A DNA stretch of 64,000 bases from Escherichia coli. GTDB taxonomy: Bacteria > Pseudomonadota > Gammaproteobacteria > Enterobacterales > Enterobacteriaceae. Both the position numbers and the translations under genes were made by a program. Below, piece after piece: positions 20,364 to 53,638 of this stretch (position 1 is its first letter; each line of letters starts with the position of its first letter). The notes beneath the pieces are model-generated. The model searched no databases and was not told where the DNA came from. It was given only the letters and a program-made list of their open reading frames with translations. The stretch is from the NCBI RefSeq assembly GCF_030384885.1, contig NZ_CP128613.1; one strand, written 5' to 3'.

Positions 20364-21099
<736 letters not shown>

Positions 21100-21414: not shown

Positions 21415-22608
21415 TTACATCACCGCAGCAAACGCCTTTGCCACACGTTGTACATTTGCCGTATTTAACCCGGCGACACACATGCGACCGCTGGCGATGA
21501 GATAGACACCAAATTCTTCACGTAGTCGGTCAACCTGAGCGGCACTTAAACCGGTATAACTGAACATACCGCGCTGATTAAGCAGATAATCGAAATTGCG
21601 TTCTGGCATTTCTGTGCTCAATACCTTCACCAGTTCCTGACGCATCGCCAGAATGCGAGTACGCATCTCTTCGACTTCCGCCAGCCAGCTGGCTTTCAAT
21701 GCCTCGTCATTCAGCACCGCAGCCACCACCTGCGCACCAAAATTCGGCGGGCTGGAGTAGTTGCGGCGAACTGTTGCTTTCAATTGCCCCAGTACGCGCC
21801 CTGCGGCTTCGGCATCTTCACACAGCACAGAAAGTCCGCCGACGCGCTCGCCGTAAAGGGAGAAAATTTTCGAGAACGAATTGCTCACCAGAGCAGGTAA
21901 TCCCGCGCTGGCAATGGCGCGAATGGCGTAGGCATCTTCTTCCATACCGGCACCAAATCCTTGATAGGCAATATCAAGAAATGGGATAAGCTCGCGGGCT
22001 TTGAGAATTTCAATCACCGCATCCCACTGGTCATTGGTGAGATCGGCACCGGTTGGGTTGTGGCAGCATGGATGCAGCAACACAATACTGCGGGCAGGTA
22101 ATGTTTCCAGCGTCGCTAACAGGTCATTAAAACGCACGCCGTTGGTTGCTTTGTCGTACCAGGGGTAAGTACTCACTTCGAAACCAGCCCCGGCGAATAT
22201 TGCTACGTGGTTTTCCCAGGTGGGATCGCTGACCCATACGCCTGATTCCGGGAAGTAACGCTTCAGGAAGTCAGCGCCCACTTTCAATGCCCCTGAGCCG
22301 CCAAGGGTTTGAATGGTTGCTACGCGCTGTTGTTGCATTACCGGATGGTCCGCACCAAACAGCAGCGGCGTAATAGCATGGCGATAGCTGTTAAGCCCTT
22401 CCATCGGTAAATAAAGCGAAGCGCCATGAGGCTGCGCATTCAGGCGCACTTCCGCATCCGCCACGGCTTTCAGTTGGGGAATAATTCCGTCTTCGTTGTA
22501 GTACAGACCGATACTTAAATTCACTTTGTCGCTGCGAGGGTCTTCTTTGAAACGCTCCATAAGCGTAAGAATCGGGTCGCCAGCGTAGGCGTCAACTTTT
22601 TGAAACAC
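21415..22608 (-). CDS. tyrB: Aromatic-amino-acid aminotransferase
   Basis: Track ORF 21415..22650; start taken at GTG (22608) giving 397 aa beginning [15 protein letters not shown]; PLP aminotransferase class I motifs ([14 protein letters not shown]). Confidence 0.95.
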
Positions 22609-22689
22609 GCGATGGTTCTCCAGGTTTACGGGCAGGTGGTTAAACCACAATAAACCGGAAGAAGGCGAAGATCGAGTGGATGTTCAAAG

Positions 22690-23694
22690 TCAGTCGGGAA
22701 GTTGATGAAGAATTTGCCCCAGTCGCTCTTGCAGCGAACCCGAAACCGAAAGATAAGGAATGTTCCTGCGCGATAATTCCTGTTCGTACCACGCCTGCTG
22801 CCGCGCGCGAAACGCCTCTCCTTGCCGGGTGCCATCCTGCACAAAGGGAAATTCCGCGCCGCAAAGCACCACCAGAGAGTATTCCCGCTCCGCCAGCTGG
22901 TGAAGTTCCTTCGGGGCATGACCATATTGATCAAGGGTATAGAACAAGGTCGTGAGTGGCGATGTGTCACATATAAGATAGCGATTAGCTTCTGCTTGTT
23001 GTTCCCGACGTACCTGTTCGCGGGCGATATGCAACAAATCGTCTGCGGTTAAAACACCATTTTTCTCTTCCCAATAGTCGCGACCAAATTCAGCGACATA
23101 CGCCGTGTCGAGCACGTCCGCCAGCGCTTTTGAAAGTGTGCTCTTACCGGTTGATTCGCCACCAAGCAGACAGATACGGCGAACGAAACTGCGATAAACG
23201 TCGTGCGCCAGCATGTAACGATAGCGGTGAACGTCGGAACGAATCAGCGTTCCCGAAGGAGATTTATCGCCAAGTGGACGCTGTAATCGAATGTGTTCAA
23301 CAGGTTGGGCAAAACGCTTTGTCAGCACTTTAGCAAAACCGTCACCATAATCTTCTGCGGTAAATACAGCGTGTGGGCGGCAATGTAATACCTGCAGGCA
23401 CAGCGTCGCCACATAATGACGATGGATGTCGGCATCGGCATCATTATGCGGTATGGCAGGTAAGTTATAACGCGCGATCAGTTCGGGAGTCAGTACCAGA
23501 ACCGTCGCTCGCGGGAAGCTCACTTGCAGCCACGTCAGGCGCTTTTCAGGTTCACAGTCAGGCATTTCCGGCACGGAATAACTGATGATGAACAGTTCTT
23601 CACATTGTGCCAGCGCGGTATTGATCAACCGTTCATGACCACAATGCAAAGGCGCGAATTTGCCAACCACCAGTCCCGTTACGAAAGGCTTCAT
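22690..23694 (-). CDS. NadR-like bifunctional NMN adenylyltransferase / ribosylnicotinamide kinase lacking the N-terminal HTH domain
   Basis: 334 aa from ATG at 23694 (ATGA overlap with upstream gene stop); nucleotidyltransferase motif GKFAPLHCGHERLI (HxGH); Walker A GGESTGKST followed by EFGRDYWE as in the NadR RNK domain. Confidence 0.8.
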   Translation of the reverse strand: MKPFVTGLVVGKFAPLHCGHERLINTALAQCEELFIISYSVPEMPDCEPEKRLTWLQVSFPRATVLVLTPELIARYNLPAIPHNDADADIHRHYVATLCLQVLHCRPHAVFTAEDYGDGFAKVLTKRFAQPVEHIRLQRPLGDKSPSGTLIRSDVHRYRYMLAHDVYRSFVRRICLLGGESTGKSTLSKALADVLDTAYVAEFGRDYWEEKNGVLTADDLLHIAREQVRREQQAEANRYLICDTSPLTTLFYTLDQYGHAPKELHQLAEREYSLVVLCGAEFPFVQDGTRQGEAFRARQQAWYEQELSRRNIPYLSVSGSLQERLGQILHQLPD

Positions 23695-24248
23695 GATGCC
23701 CGCAGCTCCTTGCGCCACTGATACAAACCATGCCAGGCGTTAATCCAGAACAGGAAATATAAACCGGCGGTCAAGTTTAAACCACGCGTCATATACAGTG
23801 GCACCGCCAGGGTATTCACTGCTAACCAGACGTACCAGTTTTCGATACGTCTTCCCATCAACATGAATTGTGCCAGAACGCTGAAGGTCAAAATCAACGA
23901 ATCCAGCCAGGGGGCCCAGGCATTGGTAAAGGTGTGGAGCAAAAAGCCGTAGCCACCTGCCACGACGACGGCACAGAGCAACAAGAGGAAAAAGTGACTG
24001 GCTTGCGTCCGGCGCACCGGCAAGACATCGCCACCCTGACCTTTCAGCCAGTGGATCCAACCGATGATGCTGGTTGCGATGAAGAATAACTGGAGCGTGA
24101 CATCGGCATAGAGTTGCACGGACCAAAAAACCCAGCCATACAGCATGCTACCAATTATGCCGATCCACCACGTATGCACATTGTTTCTGGCGGCCAGCCA
24201 GACGGAAACCGCGTATGCCAGACACGCGGCGATTTCTGAATAAGACAT
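23691..24248 (-). CDS. PnuC-like nicotinamide riboside (nucleoside) transporter
   Basis: 185-aa multi-TM ORF; PnuC-type motifs (QLYADVTLQLFF...GWIHW; ENWYVWLAVN); strong SD GGGAGGG 5 nt upstream; start lies 22 bp downstream of the alr stop. Confidence 0.75.
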   Translation of the reverse strand: MSYSEIAACLAYAVSVWLAARNNVHTWWIGIIGSMLYGWVFWSVQLYADVTLQLFFIATSIIGWIHWLKGQGGDVLPVRRTQASHFFLLLLCAVVVAGGYGFLLHTFTNAWAPWLDSLILTFSVLAQFMLMGRRIENWYVWLAVNTLAVPLYMTRGLNLTAGLYFLFWINAWHGLYQWRKELRAS

Positions 24249-24270
24249 TGTCCCTCCCTGGAGACGGGTA

Positions 24271-25350
24271 TTAATCCACGTATTTCATCGCGACCCTTGA
24301 AGTCAGGCGCGTGATAAGTTCGTAAGCGCTCACTTTCGTCATTTCAGCGATACGTTCTACGGGCAAACCTTCGCCCCATAAAATGACCGGGTCCCCGGCT
24401 TTATCCTGCGCCTGTGGACCTAAGTCGACGCAGATCATATCCATCGCGACTCGCCCGACAATCGGCACTTCGCGACCGTTCACCAGCACTGGCGTACCGG
24501 ACGGCGCGGCGCGCGGATAACCATCGCCATAACCCATAGCGACTACGCCAAGACGGGTATTACGTTCGCTTACCCAGGTTCCACCATAACCGACAGGCTC
24601 TCCGGCTTTATGCTCACGCACAGCAATCAGGCTGGAGGTCAATGACATTACCGGCTGACAGCCAAAATCGGCACCGGTGGAGCGATCTTCCAGCGGCGAG
24701 ACACCGTAAAGAATGATGCCCGGGCGCACCCAGTCAAAATGTGACTGTGGCCACAGCAGAATGCCCCCCGACGCGGCAATGGAACGTTGACCAGGTTTGC
24801 CTTCACAAAAGGTATTAAAGATATCGAGTTGTTTCTCGGTTGCACCGCATTTTGGCTCATCCGCGCGCGCAAAATGGCTGACAATATTCACCGGCTGACG
24901 AACGTTTTTGCACTGAGTCAGGCGATGATAAAACGTCTCAGCCTGTTCCGGCCTTACGCCCAGACGGTGCATACCGGTATCGAGTTTCATCCAGACGGTA
25001 ACCGGCTCGTCCAGGCTGGCCTCTTCCAGCGCAGCAAGCTGTTCTTCGTTATGCACGGCGGTATGAAAATGTTGCGCAGAAATCGTCGGTAGATCTCTGG
25101 CATCAAAAAAGCCTTCGAGTAACAGTACAGGTTTGGTGATTCCCCCCGCACGCAGTCGCAGAGCTTCTTCGAGACGGGCTACGCCAAAGGCGTCAGCATC
25201 GGGGAGCGTTCGCGCGGTCTCAAGAAGACCGTGACCATAAGCGTTCGCTTTCACCACCGCAACCATTTTACTGGCAGGTGCCAGTTCACGAAGACGTTGC
25301 AGGTTGTGTCGCAGAGCGCGGCGGTTAATCACAACAGTTGCCGCTTGCAT
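24271..25350 (-). CDS. alr: Alanine racemase, biosynthetic
   Basis: 359-aa ORF; PLP-binding [10 protein letters not shown] motif near the N-terminus. Confidence 0.96.
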
Positions 25351-25476
25351 TTGTGTTCCTTTTTTTCAGGTTCTGCCCACCCGTGCAAAACCTCGCTAAA
25401 CAGATAGGACCGGAGTATGCTATTCCACATCCAGGGATGGGTTTATAAACGGCAAGATGATATCGGATTTTCAGCC

Positions 25477-50804: not shown

Positions 50805-52901
50805 TTAGCGGAAATTGACGCTTCGGTCGCTGGTCATGTCATACAACTGGAACTTACGCCCAAGTTGCTGACCACCGTCACGCGTCAGCGGCGTCCAGCC
50901 AATTGCCGCTCGGCTACGAGTCGGGCCAGACGAGAAGAGATCCAACGGTACAGAGATATACACGCCTTTGGTGAAGTCCCCTTCGCCGTACTCCTCTTTC
51001 GAAACATTCGTGATCGTGGCATACCCACCCACTACCACGCCGCTGTCAAAGCGTTTGGCGATTTCCAGCGTGCCGCCTTTATCCCCTGCCAGATATTGCC
51101 CGACGCTGGCTTTCACTAACACATCCTGAGCGAAAGATGGCGTCCAGTAGGCGGTCAGATGTCCGGTTTTCACGCTGTAATCGGTGAATTTCATCATATC
51201 TTTCGCGCTACGCCAGTCGCGCTGTTTAACGTAGTTAGCATCCAGACCAAACGCCCAGTTGCTATCCAGCGGGCGATACAACACCTCTGCCCCCACGCCG
51301 CCAAACATGGTTTCGAGATAACCACCGTAGACCTGACCGTAGAAGCCGTTGCCCAGATGCTGGAAGTAGTTGGCTTGCAGGTTATTCACATAGACATCAT
51401 TCTGCACATACTCACGCACATGGGTACGCACGCGCGGTAAGTGCGAGTCCTGCGGCGGATTGGTGTAGTTAAACTTGTCGTAGTTGTTGGCAAGGTTAGC
51501 AAACAGGCTGCCGGTGGTCAGCAGATGGTCCGTCAGCCACAAATCTGCCGTTCCCATCACGCCCAGCTGATACATGTAAAAGTTTTCCGGGCCACCGACC
51601 GACTGGTTTAGCACCGGATCGATATGGAAATCAAAGCGTGATTTGTCGATATACCAGCCCTGCTCGGTGGACTTCGGAACCACTGGCTCGACGCGTTTTT
51701 GCGCCAGCTTCGTTTCGTGGCCCAACGGCTCTCCGGCAAGATGATTTTTCAGGCTGGCGACATCGGTTTCCGTCGTCACCTGCGGCATGTTAAGGCGATT
51801 TTCTGTAACGCGGATCGTCTTGATCCCATCCGGCAGATCGTTCATCACGATCCGATTAGCACGGATGATCCCTTCGCGCGAATCACGATATTTCACCTGC
51901 TCACCGGTGACGTACAGCGTATCGCCTTTCGTCTGGATCTGCGGATCGGCCAGTCCGGCGTTGTATTTCAACAGCGTTAACTGATTCGCCACCACCGAAT
52001 GCTGCAAAATGGCATCCTGCGGCTGCGGTTGATATTGCGGACGGGCGTTATCGTTGTAGGACGGGCGTAGATCGTTAAAGTTGGTACGCAGCGTGACGCC
52101 AAACATAAAGGTGTTACCGCGTTCATAGCTAAGGTTAACGTCGGCCCAATCGGTAACGCGATAAATCGCCCCGACGTTAAACTTACTTTTTTGCTCCAGC
52201 TTCCCGGCAAAATCCTGCTGATAATTATTGCCTTCATACTCCAGTTTCAGACGCAGCGGCTGCCAGGGCGTCTGGTATTCCACGCCGCCAAACAGTGAGG
52301 CCGGACCGTGGAACATCTGGCTGCCGTCGATAGATCCCGCTTGTTTGTAGCTGTTATCGCGATAGCAATATTTGTCACTGGCTGAACAGAGCGGATTTTT
52401 CACGTTACCGCTGGTGCCCAGATATCCCCAGCCCAGGCCGAGCGTAAAATCGAATGGCCCCCAGGCTTTGCTGGCGACAAGATATTCCGCATCGAACAGC
52501 CCCGTACCGCCGATATCCCGCGCACCAACCGCCACCTGTGGCAGCCAGTAACTCTCTTCCCATAAACGCAGTTTGAGATCGAAGGCTTTATCTTTATACG
52601 TTTGATCACCAGAGAACGCTTCGACGCTGCTGTACTGCCGAGTGCGCACGTCGGTATAACGCAGCGTTGTTTCCAACCACGGGAAGAGTTGCACCGAAGC
52701 AGAGTAATAACGGTACTGATCGTTATCGCGATAGTTCAGACTCAACTCCCCTTCCCGCGCCATGCGCGCAGTAGGTGTTTGTAATAATCCTACGCCACCG
52801 AAATCCGATTGCGACGGACCAATGGGCGAAGGATATGTTTCGCCGTAGCAAGCCGTGCTAATGCCCAGCGCCAGTAAACTAAGCAGATGTCTTTTTTTCA
52901 T
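50805..52901 (-). CDS. yjbH: YjbH, outer-membrane lipoprotein of the yjbEFGH exopolysaccharide locus
   Basis: 698-aa ORF; signal and lipobox region [18 protein letters not shown]; last gene of four co-oriented overlapping genes. Confidence 0.9.
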
Positions 52902-53638
52902 TATTGCGGTATCCGCTGCGTCAGAGTCTGAAGAATGTCAGCGTTAAGGGCATCAGGCGTCTCACTCCAGACGGAGTCCGCGAGGCCAACATAAATAATG
53001 CTGCCGGGCATCAGCTCTACGTGACGCTTGTTCCAGTAAGCCACCGGCGCTTTTTGCGTGCGTCCATCCGGATAAACGACCCACGCGTAGCTGCGATCCG
53101 CACCGCTGAGCAGGCTCTGGTCAGAGAGATAGCTCGCCACGTCGCGACCGGGAGTGAATGGCTGATTGCCAGGACGGCTGATAAGCCCGAATAACGTGAC
53201 CGTGGACGGTGGTGGTCCGACCCACAGCGTGTAGTTGCCCTGCAACGGCGGGTTACCGCGTTCGGCAACGCGCACGATATCAGGATCAAGATTGATTTTT
53301 TGTCTGCCCGTCACCTTCAACGCCTGAATTTGCTGGCGTAAGGCGTTAATGGCGGCGGCATCGTCGGTGCTGGATTCTGAGGCCAGTTCTGCCAGCCTTG
53401 TCAGCAACGCCTGCTGCTGCCGTAATGCCGCCGCCGTTGCCAGCTCTTCGCTAATCACCGCTCCGGGCCACCAACTGTTTGCCAGCCGCGGTTGGCCTAC
53501 CAGATCGATTAAATGCTCTGCGCCCGTTAGCGTTTTGGCCTCATTGCTGCCATTACTGAACACTTTGACGGTGCCTGCCGCAAAGACCGATGACGCTCCC
53601 ACGCTCATAATCAACGCAGCAATAGTTTGTTTAATCAT
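52901..53638 (-). CDS. yjbG: YjbG, periplasmic protein of the yjbEFGH locus
   Basis: 245 aa from [20 protein letters not shown] (signal peptide); track ORF begins upstream at 53734; 4-nt overlap with yjbF and 1-nt overlap with yjbH. Confidence 0.88.

What the first reader, a model, noticed from the sequence alone, without database searches (positions are those of the whole stretch)
23691..23694. ATGA stop/start overlaps mark tightly coupled gene pairs
Four-base ATGA overlaps occur at nrfB/nrfC (651-654), yjcH/actP (5573-5576), pnuC-like/nadR-like (23691-23694) and yjbF/yjbG (53635-53638); yjbG/yjbH overlap by 1 nt. The accessory pnuC-like/nadR-like pair therefore shows the same translational coupling as established core operons, which supports it being one functional unit.
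Basis: seen in the sequence. Interest (0 to 1): 0.25.

Follow-up and report, generated by a model that had tools for sequence, protein, structure and literature searches.

The report
ATGA overlap in pnuC–nadR-like operon
The four-base ATGA stop/start overlaps are real but are a textbook feature of bacterial operons. The one at 23691-23694 joins a second, strain-variable vitamin-B3 (nicotinamide riboside) transporter gene to the gene of the enzyme that traps the vitamin, and this pairing is conserved in many bacteria.

Summary
Observation confirmed. All four ATGA junctions and the 1-nt yjbG/yjbH overlap lie exactly where stated, three of them on the minus strand, and they match RefSeq CDS boundaries in a 99.9%-identical strain.

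The junction at 23691-23694 joins two minus-strand genes:
- a 185-aa PnuC-family transporter (23691-24248);
- a 334-aa NadR-like enzyme without the HTH domain (22690-23694), with NMN adenylyltransferase and ribosylnicotinamide kinase domains.

In 62 of 80 genomes from several phyla a pnuC-like gene lies directly upstream of the nadR-like gene. Fifty of those junctions fall in the -8..+10 nt class, and 29-34 overlap by exactly 4 nt. In Andreprevotia the pair sits in an NrtR-linked NAD locus.

Translational coupling is inferred from geometry only; 4 of 5 tested E. coli ATGA pairs were coupled.

The pair lies 22 nt behind alr and occurs in 867 of 5,426 complete E. coli genomes, including B2 strains such as CFT073, ST131 and 536. 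It occupies the same alr-tyrB site in Kosakonia, Enterobacter and Superficieibacter, so it is probably ancestral and lost in most E. coli.

Verdict: ordinary, low interest. One unexplained side observation: in other taxa this subfamily ends an uncharacterised MoxR-vWA-ligase operon.

The parts
23691..23694 (-). ATGA stop/start overlap: TGA stop of pnuC-like (23693..23691) and ATG start of nadR-like (23694..23692)
   Evidence: The same boundaries are annotated by PGAP in six E. coli strains.
23691..24248 (-). pnuC-like gene: 185-aa Pnu-family transporter, conserved core only
   Evidence: PF04973 matches full length, 166.7 bits. TIGR01528 scores 77.8 bits against a cutoff of 42.45. It aligns to N. 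mucosa PnuC 4QTN residues 51-231. It is 22% identical to canonical K-12 PnuC.
23814..23837 (-). Codons for W138-Y-V-W-L-A-V-N145, the WxxW(x)3D/N ligand-binding motif of Pnu transporters
   Evidence: Motif found. Its role is described in PMC5749112.
22690..23694 (-). nadR-like gene: 334 aa, with an NMN-adenylyltransferase-like and a ribosylnicotinamide-kinase-like (AAA_28) domain and no HTH domain
   Evidence: It aligns over both domains to H. influenzae NadR 1LW7 (residues 6-328) and to 9x6f, 8x7f and 6gye. It is 29% identical to K-12 NadR from K-12 residue 67 onward.
23635..23664 (-). Codons for GKFAPLHCGH (aa 11-20), the nucleotidyltransferase HxGH motif
   Evidence: (invariant columns).
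23140..23163 (-). Codons for GGESTGKS (aa 178-185), the Walker A motif of the kinase domain
23706..23711 (-). AAGGAG Shine-Dalgarno-like motif inside the pnuC-like 3' end, 11 nt upstream of the nadR-like ATG
   Evidence: Anti-SD duplex energy is -7.7 kcal/mol in this allele. In the common ~91% allele (CFT073/ST131) the motif is degenerate (AAAGAG, -2.4 kcal/mol).
23716..23718 (-). In-frame upstream GTG (ATG in the ~91% allele): an alternative start that I rejected
   Evidence: It has no equivalent in several homologous loci. Homologue N-termini align to the ATGA start.
24249..24270 (-). 22-nt spacer between the alr stop and the pnuC-like start. It contains GGGAGGG (24252-24258), a strong SD 3 nt before the ATG
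24271..25350 (-). alr (alanine racemase), the gene immediately upstream. It probably supplies the transcript.
   Evidence: One promoter-like site lies inside alr at 24461-24434 and none lies inside pnuC-like.
22609..22689 (-). 81-nt spacer between the nadR-like stop and the tyrB GTG start. The 78 nt nearest tyrB are shared with strains that lack the cassette.
651..654 (-). ATGA overlap nrfB/nrfC
5573..5576 (+). ATGA overlap yjcH/actP
53635..53638 (-). ATGA overlap yjbF/yjbG
52901..52901 (-). 1-nt overlap yjbG/yjbH (TAATG)

Best explanation
The ATGA at 23691-23694 is the junction of a two-gene nicotinamide riboside (NR) salvage module. The module is a second, divergent copy alongside the universal E. 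coli pnuC and nadR genes.

Proposed mechanism:
1. The module is transcribed from alr. The spacer is only 22 nt and leaves no room for a promoter (inferred).
2. pnuC' is initiated de novo at its strong GGGAGGG Shine-Dalgarno site. A 22-nt gap is outside the range in which coupling works (inferred).
3. Ribosomes that terminate at the pnuC' UGA re-initiate at the overlapping AUG of nadR'. In this allele an AAGGAG motif inside pnuC' helps. Enzyme synthesis is therefore tied to transporter synthesis (inferred from geometry and from published tests on other E. coli ATGA pairs).
4. PnuC' is a facilitator that lets NR diffuse into the cell. The kinase domain of NadR' phosphorylates NR to NMN, which cannot leave through PnuC, and the adenylyltransferase domain converts NMN to NAD. 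This is inferred from family membership, intact motifs and genomic context; the activities were not measured.
5. NadR' has no HTH domain, so it is an enzyme and not a repressor (shown by sequence).
For: Geometry and annotation: with PGAP agreement in six strains.

Start codon.

Family and motifs:
- PnuC': PF04973 full length, TIGR01528 above its cutoff, WxxW(x)3N motif present.
- NadR': HxGH, SGTLIR, Walker A, LICDT and DGTR motifs are invariant across 12 homologues and align to H. influenzae NadR over both domains.

Conserved unit:
- pnuC-like lies directly upstream on the same strand in 62 of 80 loci from Gamma- and Betaproteobacteria, Verrucomicrobia and Planctomycetes.
- Junctions are overlap 4 in 29 loci (34 if ATGA is taken wherever available), overlap 1 in 3 and a gap of 1-8 nt in 17. 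In all, 50 of 62 fall in the -8..+10 class.
- All enterobacterial copies keep the 4-nt overlap although the last PnuC' codons diverge, and one uses GTGA.

NAD context: in Andreprevotia lacus the order is nrtR, ADP-ribosylglycohydrolase, pnuC', nadR', and this group is divergent from a pncA-like/pncB/nadE group.

No competing signals: there is no promoter-like site inside pnuC', and the junction RNA is not more structured than shuffled sequence (z = +1.41).

Literature:
- 4 of 5 native E. coli ATGA pairs are coupled by termination-reinitiation, and the SD usually contributes (PMC6728339).
- Coupling collapses at a gap of about 20 nt (PMC10666635).
- Pnu transporters are facilitators that depend on metabolic trapping, and pnu genes often sit next to the matching kinase (PMC5749112).
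- pnuC-nadR clusters and HTH-less active NadR enzymes are known (PMC7221760 and PMC2330246).
Against: - Nothing here measures expression. Coupling is inferred from geometry, and one of the five tested E. coli ATGA pairs (bioB/bioF) was not coupled.
- In the common ~91% allele the SD-like motif is degenerate (AAAGAG, -2.4 kcal/mol), and SD removal cut re-initiation by 60-100% in 4 of 5 tested pairs.
- The overlap is not universal. Pseudomonas uses TGAnATG and Stenotrophomonas a 14-nt overlap.
- NadR' scores far below the NadR equivalog cutoff (TIGR01526: 148 bits against 341). PGAP names it only 'AAA family ATPase', so substrate specificity is not established.
- In about 36 of 80 loci the subfamily ends a MoxR-vWA-ligase operon of unknown function, and in Janthinobacterium nadR' is kept without pnuC'.
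- C-terminally truncated nadR' variants circulate in E. coli, which suggests the module is dispensable.
Confidence: 0.7

Rival explanations
1. The overlap is a neutral by-product of how stop and start codons drift in tightly packed operons. nadR' is then translated mainly by independent initiation at its own ribosome-binding site, so the ATGA says nothing about coupling. The genes could still be co-transcribed and functionally linked.
For: - Simple mutation models reproduce much of the length distribution of short unidirectional overlaps without invoking selection (PMC3887535).
- bioB/bioF, an E. coli ATGA pair, initiates de novo (PMC6728339).
- An AAGGAG motif precedes the nadR' start in this allele, and the junction is unstructured and so accessible (z = +1.41).
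- Other lineages have replaced the overlap with 1-8 nt gaps or a 14-nt overlap.
Against: - The -4 geometry is kept in all enterobacterial copies despite turnover of the flanking codons, including an ATG-to-GTG change.
- 50 of 62 junctions stay within the narrow window where re-initiation works (PMC10666635).
- The most common E. coli allele and Kosakonia lack a usable SD, which makes purely de novo initiation less plausible there.
Confidence: 0.2
2. The nadR-like gene really starts at the in-frame GTG at 23718 (ATG in the ~91% allele). That would give a 28-nt overlap instead of the ATGA junction.
For: An in-frame GTG/ATG exists 24 nt upstream in both E. coli alleles. One older E. coli annotation (P0055, strain DEC2E) begins MAQRVANIMKPF..., which uses that start.
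Against: - Homologue N-termini from 11 genera align to MK(P/R)F.
- Several species have no in-frame start upstream of the ATGA (L012, L052, L053, L066).
- No SD-like motif precedes 23718.
- PGAP chooses the ATGA start in all six strains checked.
Confidence: 0.04
3. The pair is a unit, but not primarily for nicotinamide riboside. This subfamily could handle another riboside or nucleotide, or supply NAD to an associated MoxR-vWA-adenylating-enzyme system. The E. coli pair would then be a remnant of that system.
For: - About 36 of 80 loci place the pair, or nadR' alone, at the end of an operon ordered A (vWA-like DSSGS motif), optional radical SAM, B, PaaK-like ligase.
- In Pseudoduganella the operon starts with a MoxR-type AAA_3 ATPase.
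- None of the partner proteins has a curated family.
- NadR' is below the NadR equivalog cutoff.
Against: - All NMNAT and kinase motifs are intact, and the alignment to characterised NadR enzymes runs end to end.
- PnuC' keeps the ligand-binding motif and passes the PnuC equivalog cutoff.
- In Andreprevotia the pair sits in a clear NrtR/pncB/nadE NAD locus.
- In Enterobacteriaceae, Pseudomonas and Stenotrophomonas the pair stands alone.
Confidence: 0.1

Closest known systems
PnuC + NadR nicotinamide riboside salvage ('salvage III'), characterised in Haemophilus influenzae, Salmonella/E. coli and Lactococcus lactis
   Same: It has a Pnu-family facilitator plus a bifunctional NMN adenylyltransferase / ribosylnicotinamide kinase. 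The HxGH, SxTxxR, Walker A/B and lid motifs are present, and the alignment to 1LW7 and 6GYE is full length. Like L. lactis NadR it has no HTH domain (PMC7221760).
   Different: It is only 29% identical to E. coli NadR and 22% to E. coli PnuC. It scores below the NadR equivalog cutoff. In H. influenzae and E. coli K-12 the two genes are not adjacent; here they overlap. No activity has been measured.
Canonical E. coli nadA-pnuC operon and trifunctional NadR repressor
   Same: Same two protein families and the same presumed substrates.
   Different: The canonical genes are in 5,424-5,425 of 5,426 complete genomes, whereas the cassette is in 867. Canonical NadR has an N-terminal HTH and represses nadA-pnuC, nadB and pncB (PMC2330246); NadR' cannot bind DNA. 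The canonical genes are unlinked, while the cassette genes overlap and follow alr.
pnuC-nadR / nadR-pnuC gene clusters reported in Hahella chejuensis, Streptococcus spp., Clostridium thermocellum and Nostoc punctiforme
   Same: Transporter and trapping enzyme are adjacent in one operon, sometimes under NrtR control (PMC2330246, PMC7221760). I found an NrtR-linked example of this very subfamily in Andreprevotia.
   Different: In E. coli the pair is fused to the housekeeping gene alr and has no NAD-responsive regulator nearby.
Native E. coli ATGA-overlapping pairs tested for termination-reinitiation (hyfH/I, astD/B, ydbH/ynbE, menD/H; exception bioB/F)
   Same: Identical -4 geometry, with an SD-like motif embedded in the upstream gene (PMC6728339).
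   Different: Those pairs were tested experimentally and this one was not. Overlapping pairs are enriched for heteromeric complexes (30% against 7%, PMC10666635). A PnuC-NadR physical interaction has been suggested but never shown (PMC7221760).
PnuT thiamine transporter with adjacent thiamine kinase
   Same: Same transporter family and the same logic of facilitated diffusion followed by trapping through phosphorylation (PMC5749112).
   Different: The substrate and the kinase family differ. Here the partner is NadR-like, which points to NR.

Membership tests
Short-overlap unidirectional gene pair competent for termination-reinitiation (Huber et al. 2019, 2023) | Same-strand neighbours whose stop and start codons share ATGA (distance -4, within -8..+10) | tested here: met
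   PGAP boundaries agree.
Short-overlap unidirectional gene pair competent for termination-reinitiation (Huber et al. 2019, 2023) | [quoted passage not shown] | tested here: met
   AAGGAG at 23706-23711, 11 nt from the ATG, -7.7 kcal/mol. It is weak in the ~91% allele (AAAGAG, -2.4) and in Kosakonia.
Short-overlap unidirectional gene pair competent for termination-reinitiation (Huber et al. 2019, 2023) | Translation of the downstream gene depends on ribosomes finishing the upstream gene | not testable with these tools
   Needs reporter fusions with stop-codon variants, or ribosome profiling.
Pnu transporter family, PnuC (PF04973 / TIGR01528) | Full-length match above the curated cutoffs | tested here: met
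   PF04973: 166.7 bits against 27.3, profile positions 1-175 of 175. TIGR01528: 77.8 bits against 42.45.
Pnu transporter family, PnuC (PF04973 / TIGR01528) | WxxW(x)3D/N ligand-binding motif in TM6 | tested here: met
   W138-YV-W-LAV-N145. The motif is defined in PMC5749112.
Pnu transporter family, PnuC (PF04973 / TIGR01528) | Membership of the enterobacterial PnuC subfamily (NF011926) | tested here: not met
   63.7 bits against a cutoff of 335, and 22% identity to K-12 PnuC. It is a different branch of the family.
Pnu transporter family, PnuC (PF04973 / TIGR01528) | Transports nicotinamide riboside | not testable with these tools
   Needs uptake assays.
NadR family bifunctional NMNAT / ribosylnicotinamide kinase | N-terminal nucleotidyltransferase domain with HxGH and SxTxxR motifs | tested here: met
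   GKFAPLHCGH (aa 11-20) and SGTLIR (aa 147-152). Both are invariant in 12 homologues and align to 1LW7.
NadR family bifunctional NMNAT / ribosylnicotinamide kinase | C-terminal P-loop kinase domain with Walker A, Walker B and lid | tested here: met
   GGESTGKS (aa 178-185), LICDT (aa 240-244), DGTR (aa 287-290). PF13521 AAA_28: 116 bits.
NadR family bifunctional NMNAT / ribosylnicotinamide kinase | Score above the NadR equivalog-domain cutoff (TIGR01526) or the NadR equivalog cutoff (NF005988) | tested here: not met
   148.2 bits against 341, and 96.1 against 201. It is a divergent subfamily, so I call it 'NadR-like' rather than NadR.
NadR family bifunctional NMNAT / ribosylnicotinamide kinase | N-terminal HTH DNA-binding domain (the trifunctional enterobacterial type) | tested here: not met
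   The protein starts 10 residues before the GKF motif. The alignment to K-12 NadR begins at K-12 residue 67.
NadR family bifunctional NMNAT / ribosylnicotinamide kinase | NR kinase and NMN adenylyltransferase activities | not testable with these tools
   Needs enzyme assays.
pnuC-nadR operon (NR salvage gene cluster) | Conserved adjacency of the two genes across distant genomes | tested here: met
   62 of 80 loci have pnuC-like directly upstream on the same strand.
pnuC-nadR operon (NR salvage gene cluster) | Association with other NAD-metabolism genes or regulators | tested here: inconclusive
   Yes in Andreprevotia: nrtR, ADP-ribosylglycohydrolase, pncB and nadE are nearby. No in E. coli, where the neighbours are alr and tyrB, or in Pseudomonas yangonensis. 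About 36 loci instead link the pair to a MoxR-vWA-ligase operon.

The most novel reading that the evidence does not exclude
The E. coli pair would be a portable 'NAD top-up' module of a distinct PnuC'/NadR' subfamily. In Betaproteobacteria, some Gammaproteobacteria and Verrucomicrobia this subfamily forms the last genes of an undescribed, tightly overlapped operon: MoxR-type ATPase, unknown protein, vWA-like protein, optional radical SAM, small protein, PaaK-like adenylating enzyme, PnuC', NadR'. That operon could be an NAD-consuming maturation or conflict system. In E. coli strains that carry the pair, such as CFT073, ST131 and 536, the module would act without that system and without the NadR repressor, driven constitutively from alr. 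It might then give these strains regulator-independent NR scavenging.
Probability: 0.15. Interest if true: 0.45.

Novelty: new member of a known kind. Interest (0 to 1): 0.15.

Why it matters
The ATGA observation matters little by itself, because 4-nt overlaps are the commonest gene junction in prokaryotes.

The useful outcomes are these:
- An E. coli gene named only 'AAA family ATPase' in RefSeq can be read as an HTH-less NadR-type enzyme paired with its own PnuC.
- About one in six complete E. coli genomes therefore probably carries a second NR-to-NAD route that the NadR repressor does not control. The carriers include the extraintestinal pathogens CFT073, ST131 and 536 and Nissle-derived strains.
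- The locus shows an 'accessory' gene pair that arose by loss rather than gain.

If NR scavenging matters in urine or tissue, the module could be relevant to the nutrition of these strains. That link is speculation.

Tried and rejected
- RNA structure masking the nadR' start: folding 120 nt around the junction gave -30.6 kcal/mol, weaker than shuffled sequence (z = +1.41). No support.
- Riboswitch or other known RNA near the cassette: the Rfam scan of the whole window found only sraL, the lysine riboswitch, naRNA4 (two copies) and STnc430. None is near 22.6-24.3 kb.
- Internal promoter: the only sigma-70-like site on the minus strand of 22400-25600 lies inside alr (24461-24434), against 2.5 ± 1.6 expected by chance. 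Terminator-like hits were at chance level. The scan is weak either way.
- Defence-system reading: PADLOC gave no meaningful hit for either protein.
- Alternative upstream start at 23718: rejected (see rival explanations).
- Cassette remnants in the empty alr-tyrB site: none. The 174 nt specific to the empty site are unrelated to the cassette and contain a REP element.
- Literature on this specific E. coli cassette: nothing found. MoxR + vWA + NadR gave one unrelated jumbo-phage paper.
- Curated families for the partner proteins of the larger operon: none beyond weak AMP-binding and radical-SAM hits.
Full report
**The observation**

The + strand reads TCAT at 651-654, 23691-23694 and 53635-53638, which is ATGA on the minus strand, and ATGA at 5573-5576. 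The window is 99.9% identical to E. coli 2013C-4282 (NZ_CP027579.1). I mapped that strain's RefSeq CDS onto the window. Four of about 30 co-directional neighbour pairs sit at exactly -4: nrfB/nrfC, yjcH/actP, pnuC/'AAA family ATPase' and yjbF/yjbG. One pair, yjbG/yjbH, sits at -1 (TAATG). The tetranucleotide itself is common, with 552 occurrences on both strands. What is meaningful is that it coincides with a stop and a start.

**The two genes**

On the minus strand, 24248..23691 encodes a 185-aa protein.
- It matches the Pnu/NMN-transporter Pfam profile end to end (166.7 bits) and passes the PnuC equivalog cutoff.
- It aligns to residues 51-231 of the Neisseria mucosa PnuC structure, so it has the conserved core without the extra N-terminal helix.
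- It carries the WxxW(x)3N ligand motif at residues 138-145.

The region 23694..22690 encodes a 334-aa protein with two domains.
- The N-terminal nucleotidyltransferase domain has GKFAPLHCGH and SGTLIR.
- The C-terminal AAA_28 P-loop kinase domain has GGESTGKS, LICDT and DGTR.
- It aligns over both domains to H. influenzae NadR (1LW7) and to three other NadR/NMNAT structures.
- It has no HTH domain, and its alignment to K-12 NadR starts at K-12 residue 67 (29% identity).
- It scores below the NadR equivalog cutoffs (148 bits against 341), so it belongs to a divergent NadR-like subfamily. RefSeq calls it only 'AAA family ATPase'.

**The start codon**

An in-frame GTG lies 24 nt upstream, and it is ATG in the common allele. 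I reject it as the start for two reasons. Homologues from 11 genera begin at MK(P/R)F, and several species have no in-frame start other than the one overlapping the stop. PGAP picks the ATGA start in all six strains checked.

**Genomic setting**

The pair lies between alr and tyrB.
- The alr stop is 22 nt from the pnuC' start, and a GGGAGGG Shine-Dalgarno motif lies in that spacer.
- The nadR' stop is 81 nt from the tyrB start.
- Strains without the pair have a 252-nt alr-tyrB spacer. Its 78 nt nearest tyrB are shared with the window. The other 174 nt are unrelated to the cassette and contain a REP element.

The pair occurs in 867 of 5,426 complete E. coli genomes.
- 785 carry an allele 90-95% identical to the window; rows sampled from that band are ~91% identical and include CFT073, ST131 and a Nissle-derived strain.
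- 82 carry alleles at least 95% identical, including UPEC 536.
- Canonical nadR and pnuC are present in 5,424-5,425 genomes, so this is a second, paralogous pair.

The same order dnaB-alr-pnuC'-nadR'-tyrB-aphA occurs in Kosakonia, Superficieibacter and Enterobacter. The cassette's GC content (0.51-0.54) matches that of the flanking core genes. I infer that the pair is ancestral at this site and was lost from most E. coli. Transfer by recombination through the conserved flanks is not excluded.

Between the two E. coli alleles both genes are under purifying selection. Codon differences are 25 synonymous and 7 non-synonymous in pnuC', and 53 and 33 in nadR'.

**Is the pair a unit?**

I fetched 80 loci encoding relatives of NadR' from one genome per species.
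- In 62 loci a pnuC-like gene lies directly upstream on the same strand.
- The junction is a 4-nt overlap in 29 loci, or 34 if ATGA is taken wherever it is available.
- It is a 1-nt overlap in 3 loci, a gap of 1-8 nt in 17 (for example TGAGATG in Pseudomonas) and a 14-nt overlap in 8, seven of them Stenotrophomonas.
- Fifty of 62 junctions fall in the -8..+10 nt range that Huber et al. (PMC10666635) associate with termination-reinitiation.
- Within Enterobacteriaceae every copy keeps -4, although the last three or four PnuC' codons differ. One species uses GTGA.

In Andreprevotia lacus the pair follows nrtR and an ADP-ribosylglycohydrolase gene and faces pncA-like, pncB and nadE genes. That is a clear NAD-salvage locus.

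The published logic fits. Pnu transporters are facilitators, accumulation depends on phosphorylation of the substrate, and pnu genes are often next to the matching kinase (PMC5749112). NadR traps NR as NMN and then NAD. pnuC-nadR clusters and active HTH-less NadR enzymes are known (PMC7221760, PMC2330246).

**Is translation coupled?**

This is inference. In favour:
- The geometry is the one for which 4 of 5 native E. coli pairs showed strict coupling (PMC6728339).
- An AAGGAG motif lies 11 nt upstream of the start in this allele (-7.7 kcal/mol).
- No promoter-like site lies inside pnuC'.

Against, or uncertain:
- One tested ATGA pair (bioB/bioF) was not coupled.
- The common E. coli allele has a degenerate motif (AAAGAG, -2.4 kcal/mol).
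- The junction RNA is unstructured (z = +1.41), so de novo initiation is not blocked.
- Short overlaps can arise without selection (PMC3887535).

The 22-nt alr-pnuC' gap lies outside the coupling range, so pnuC' presumably initiates on its own strong SD.

I rate the probabilities as about 0.9 that the pair is a functional unit, about 0.7 that nadR' translation is substantially coupled, and about 0.85 that the substrate is NR.

**An unexpected context elsewhere**

In about 36 of the 80 loci the pair is the tail of a longer same-strand operon with 4-nt or 1-nt junctions. The order is:
- a 490-600-aa protein with a vWA-like DSSGS motif;
- optionally a radical-SAM/SPASM protein;
- a roughly 195-aa protein;
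- a roughly 450-aa PaaK-like adenylating enzyme;
- then pnuC' and nadR'.

In Janthinobacterium and its relatives pnuC' is absent, and nadR' overlaps the ligase gene directly. In Pseudoduganella flava the operon begins with a MoxR-type AAA_3 ATPase and ends with a 347-aa protein that has a weak double-zinc-ribbon hit. None of these partners has a curated family or a PADLOC hit beyond generic radical-SAM similarity. I found no description of the operon. It does not change the reading of the E. coli pair, which stands alone as it does in Pseudomonas and Stenotrophomonas. It does remain unexplained.

**Verdict**

The ATGA overlap is a textbook feature. The pair is an uncharacterised member of a known kind of operon, pnuC-nadR NR salvage. 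Interest is low.

Noticed in passing
L092 3743-12093 (Pseudoduganella flava); also L020-L085, e.g. L057 44-5029 and L051 13-5089: The PnuC'/NadR' subfamily is, in about 36 of 80 loci, the tail of an uncharacterised operon with tightly overlapping genes. The order is MoxR-type AAA_3 ATPase, 324-aa unknown, vWA-like protein (DSSGS motif), optional radical SAM/SPASM, ~195-aa protein, PaaK-like adenylating enzyme, (PnuC'), NadR', 347-aa protein. In Janthinobacterium and relatives pnuC' is missing and nadR' overlaps the ligase gene by ATGA. No curated family and no paper found.
   Followed up: partly
window 20364-21078 (-), extra G near 20880: aphA is 715 nt here against 714 nt in the near-identical strain. 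A run of GGGGG replaces GGGG just before the DIDDT active-site motif and splits the gene into 68-aa and 138-aa ORFs. This is either a real frameshift or a homopolymer sequencing error. A paper cited in PMC7221760 (Grose et al. 2005) reports by its title that NMN assimilation in Salmonella requires periplasmic AphA phosphatase; that AphA converts NMN to NR for uptake by PnuC is my own recollection of that work. aphA lies two genes downstream of the pair, and this synteny is conserved in other Enterobacteriaceae.
   Followed up: partly
window 25351-26641 (+ strand ORFs 25477-26037 and 26083-26610): A low-GC (0.41-0.45) islet with two hypothetical genes is inserted between alr and dnaB. In CFT073-type and K-12-type strains these two genes are only 53 nt apart. 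The whole islet is in just 2 of 5,426 genomes. The first gene alone is in 118 genomes and is annotated in some as a 'YqhG/Tai3 family protein'.
   Followed up: partly
window 22690-24248 compared with L002, L086, L087, L089: Two old allele classes of the cassette coexist in E. coli. CFT073 and ST131 are ~91% identical to the window, while UPEC 536 is 97.8% identical. Synonymous divergence of the cassette is higher than that of flanking alr and tyrB, and nadR' has a higher proportion of non-synonymous codon differences than pnuC'.
   Followed up: partly
proteins P0057, P0028, P0022, P0055 (E. coli nadR-like clusters): C-terminally truncated NadR-like variants (214, 263, 289 and 222 aa) represent dozens of sequences. 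P0057 also has F13S in the GKF motif. This suggests the kinase domain is decaying in some E. coli lineages. PMV-1-type alleles carry an in-frame 6-nt deletion (L088).
   Followed up: partly
L095 3817-7047 (Andreprevotia lacus): The order is nrtR, ADP-ribosylglycohydrolase, pnuC', nadR', and this group is divergent from pncA-like, 2OG-Fe(II) oxygenase, pncB and nadE genes. It is a compact NAD-salvage locus that contains this NadR-like subfamily.
   Followed up: no
L003 1610-1861 (empty alr-tyrB site); window ~42941-43063 and 47169-47200: Strains that lack the cassette carry a REP element in the alr-tyrB spacer. Similar REP copies lie in the mal region of the window, and the copies at about 42.9-43.1 kb overlap an Rfam naRNA4 hit (42993-43063).
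   Followed up: no
window 40104-41684 (-) and about 31062-32068 (-): A SopA-family protein gene lies between ubiC and malM. A frameshifted DUF2713-family pseudogene lies between dusA and zur. Both annotations come from the near-identical strain.
   Followed up: no
L016 3983-4948 (Serratia oryzae); L082 (Serratia sp. Ag1); L064 (Enterobacter sp. EA-1): These look like degraded copies. In L016 the nadR-like gene lacks its first ~30 codons (including the HxGH motif) and has no pnuC. In L082 pnuC' is truncated. In L064 there are multiple frameshifts, though alr is also fragmented there, so assembly quality may be the cause.
   Followed up: no
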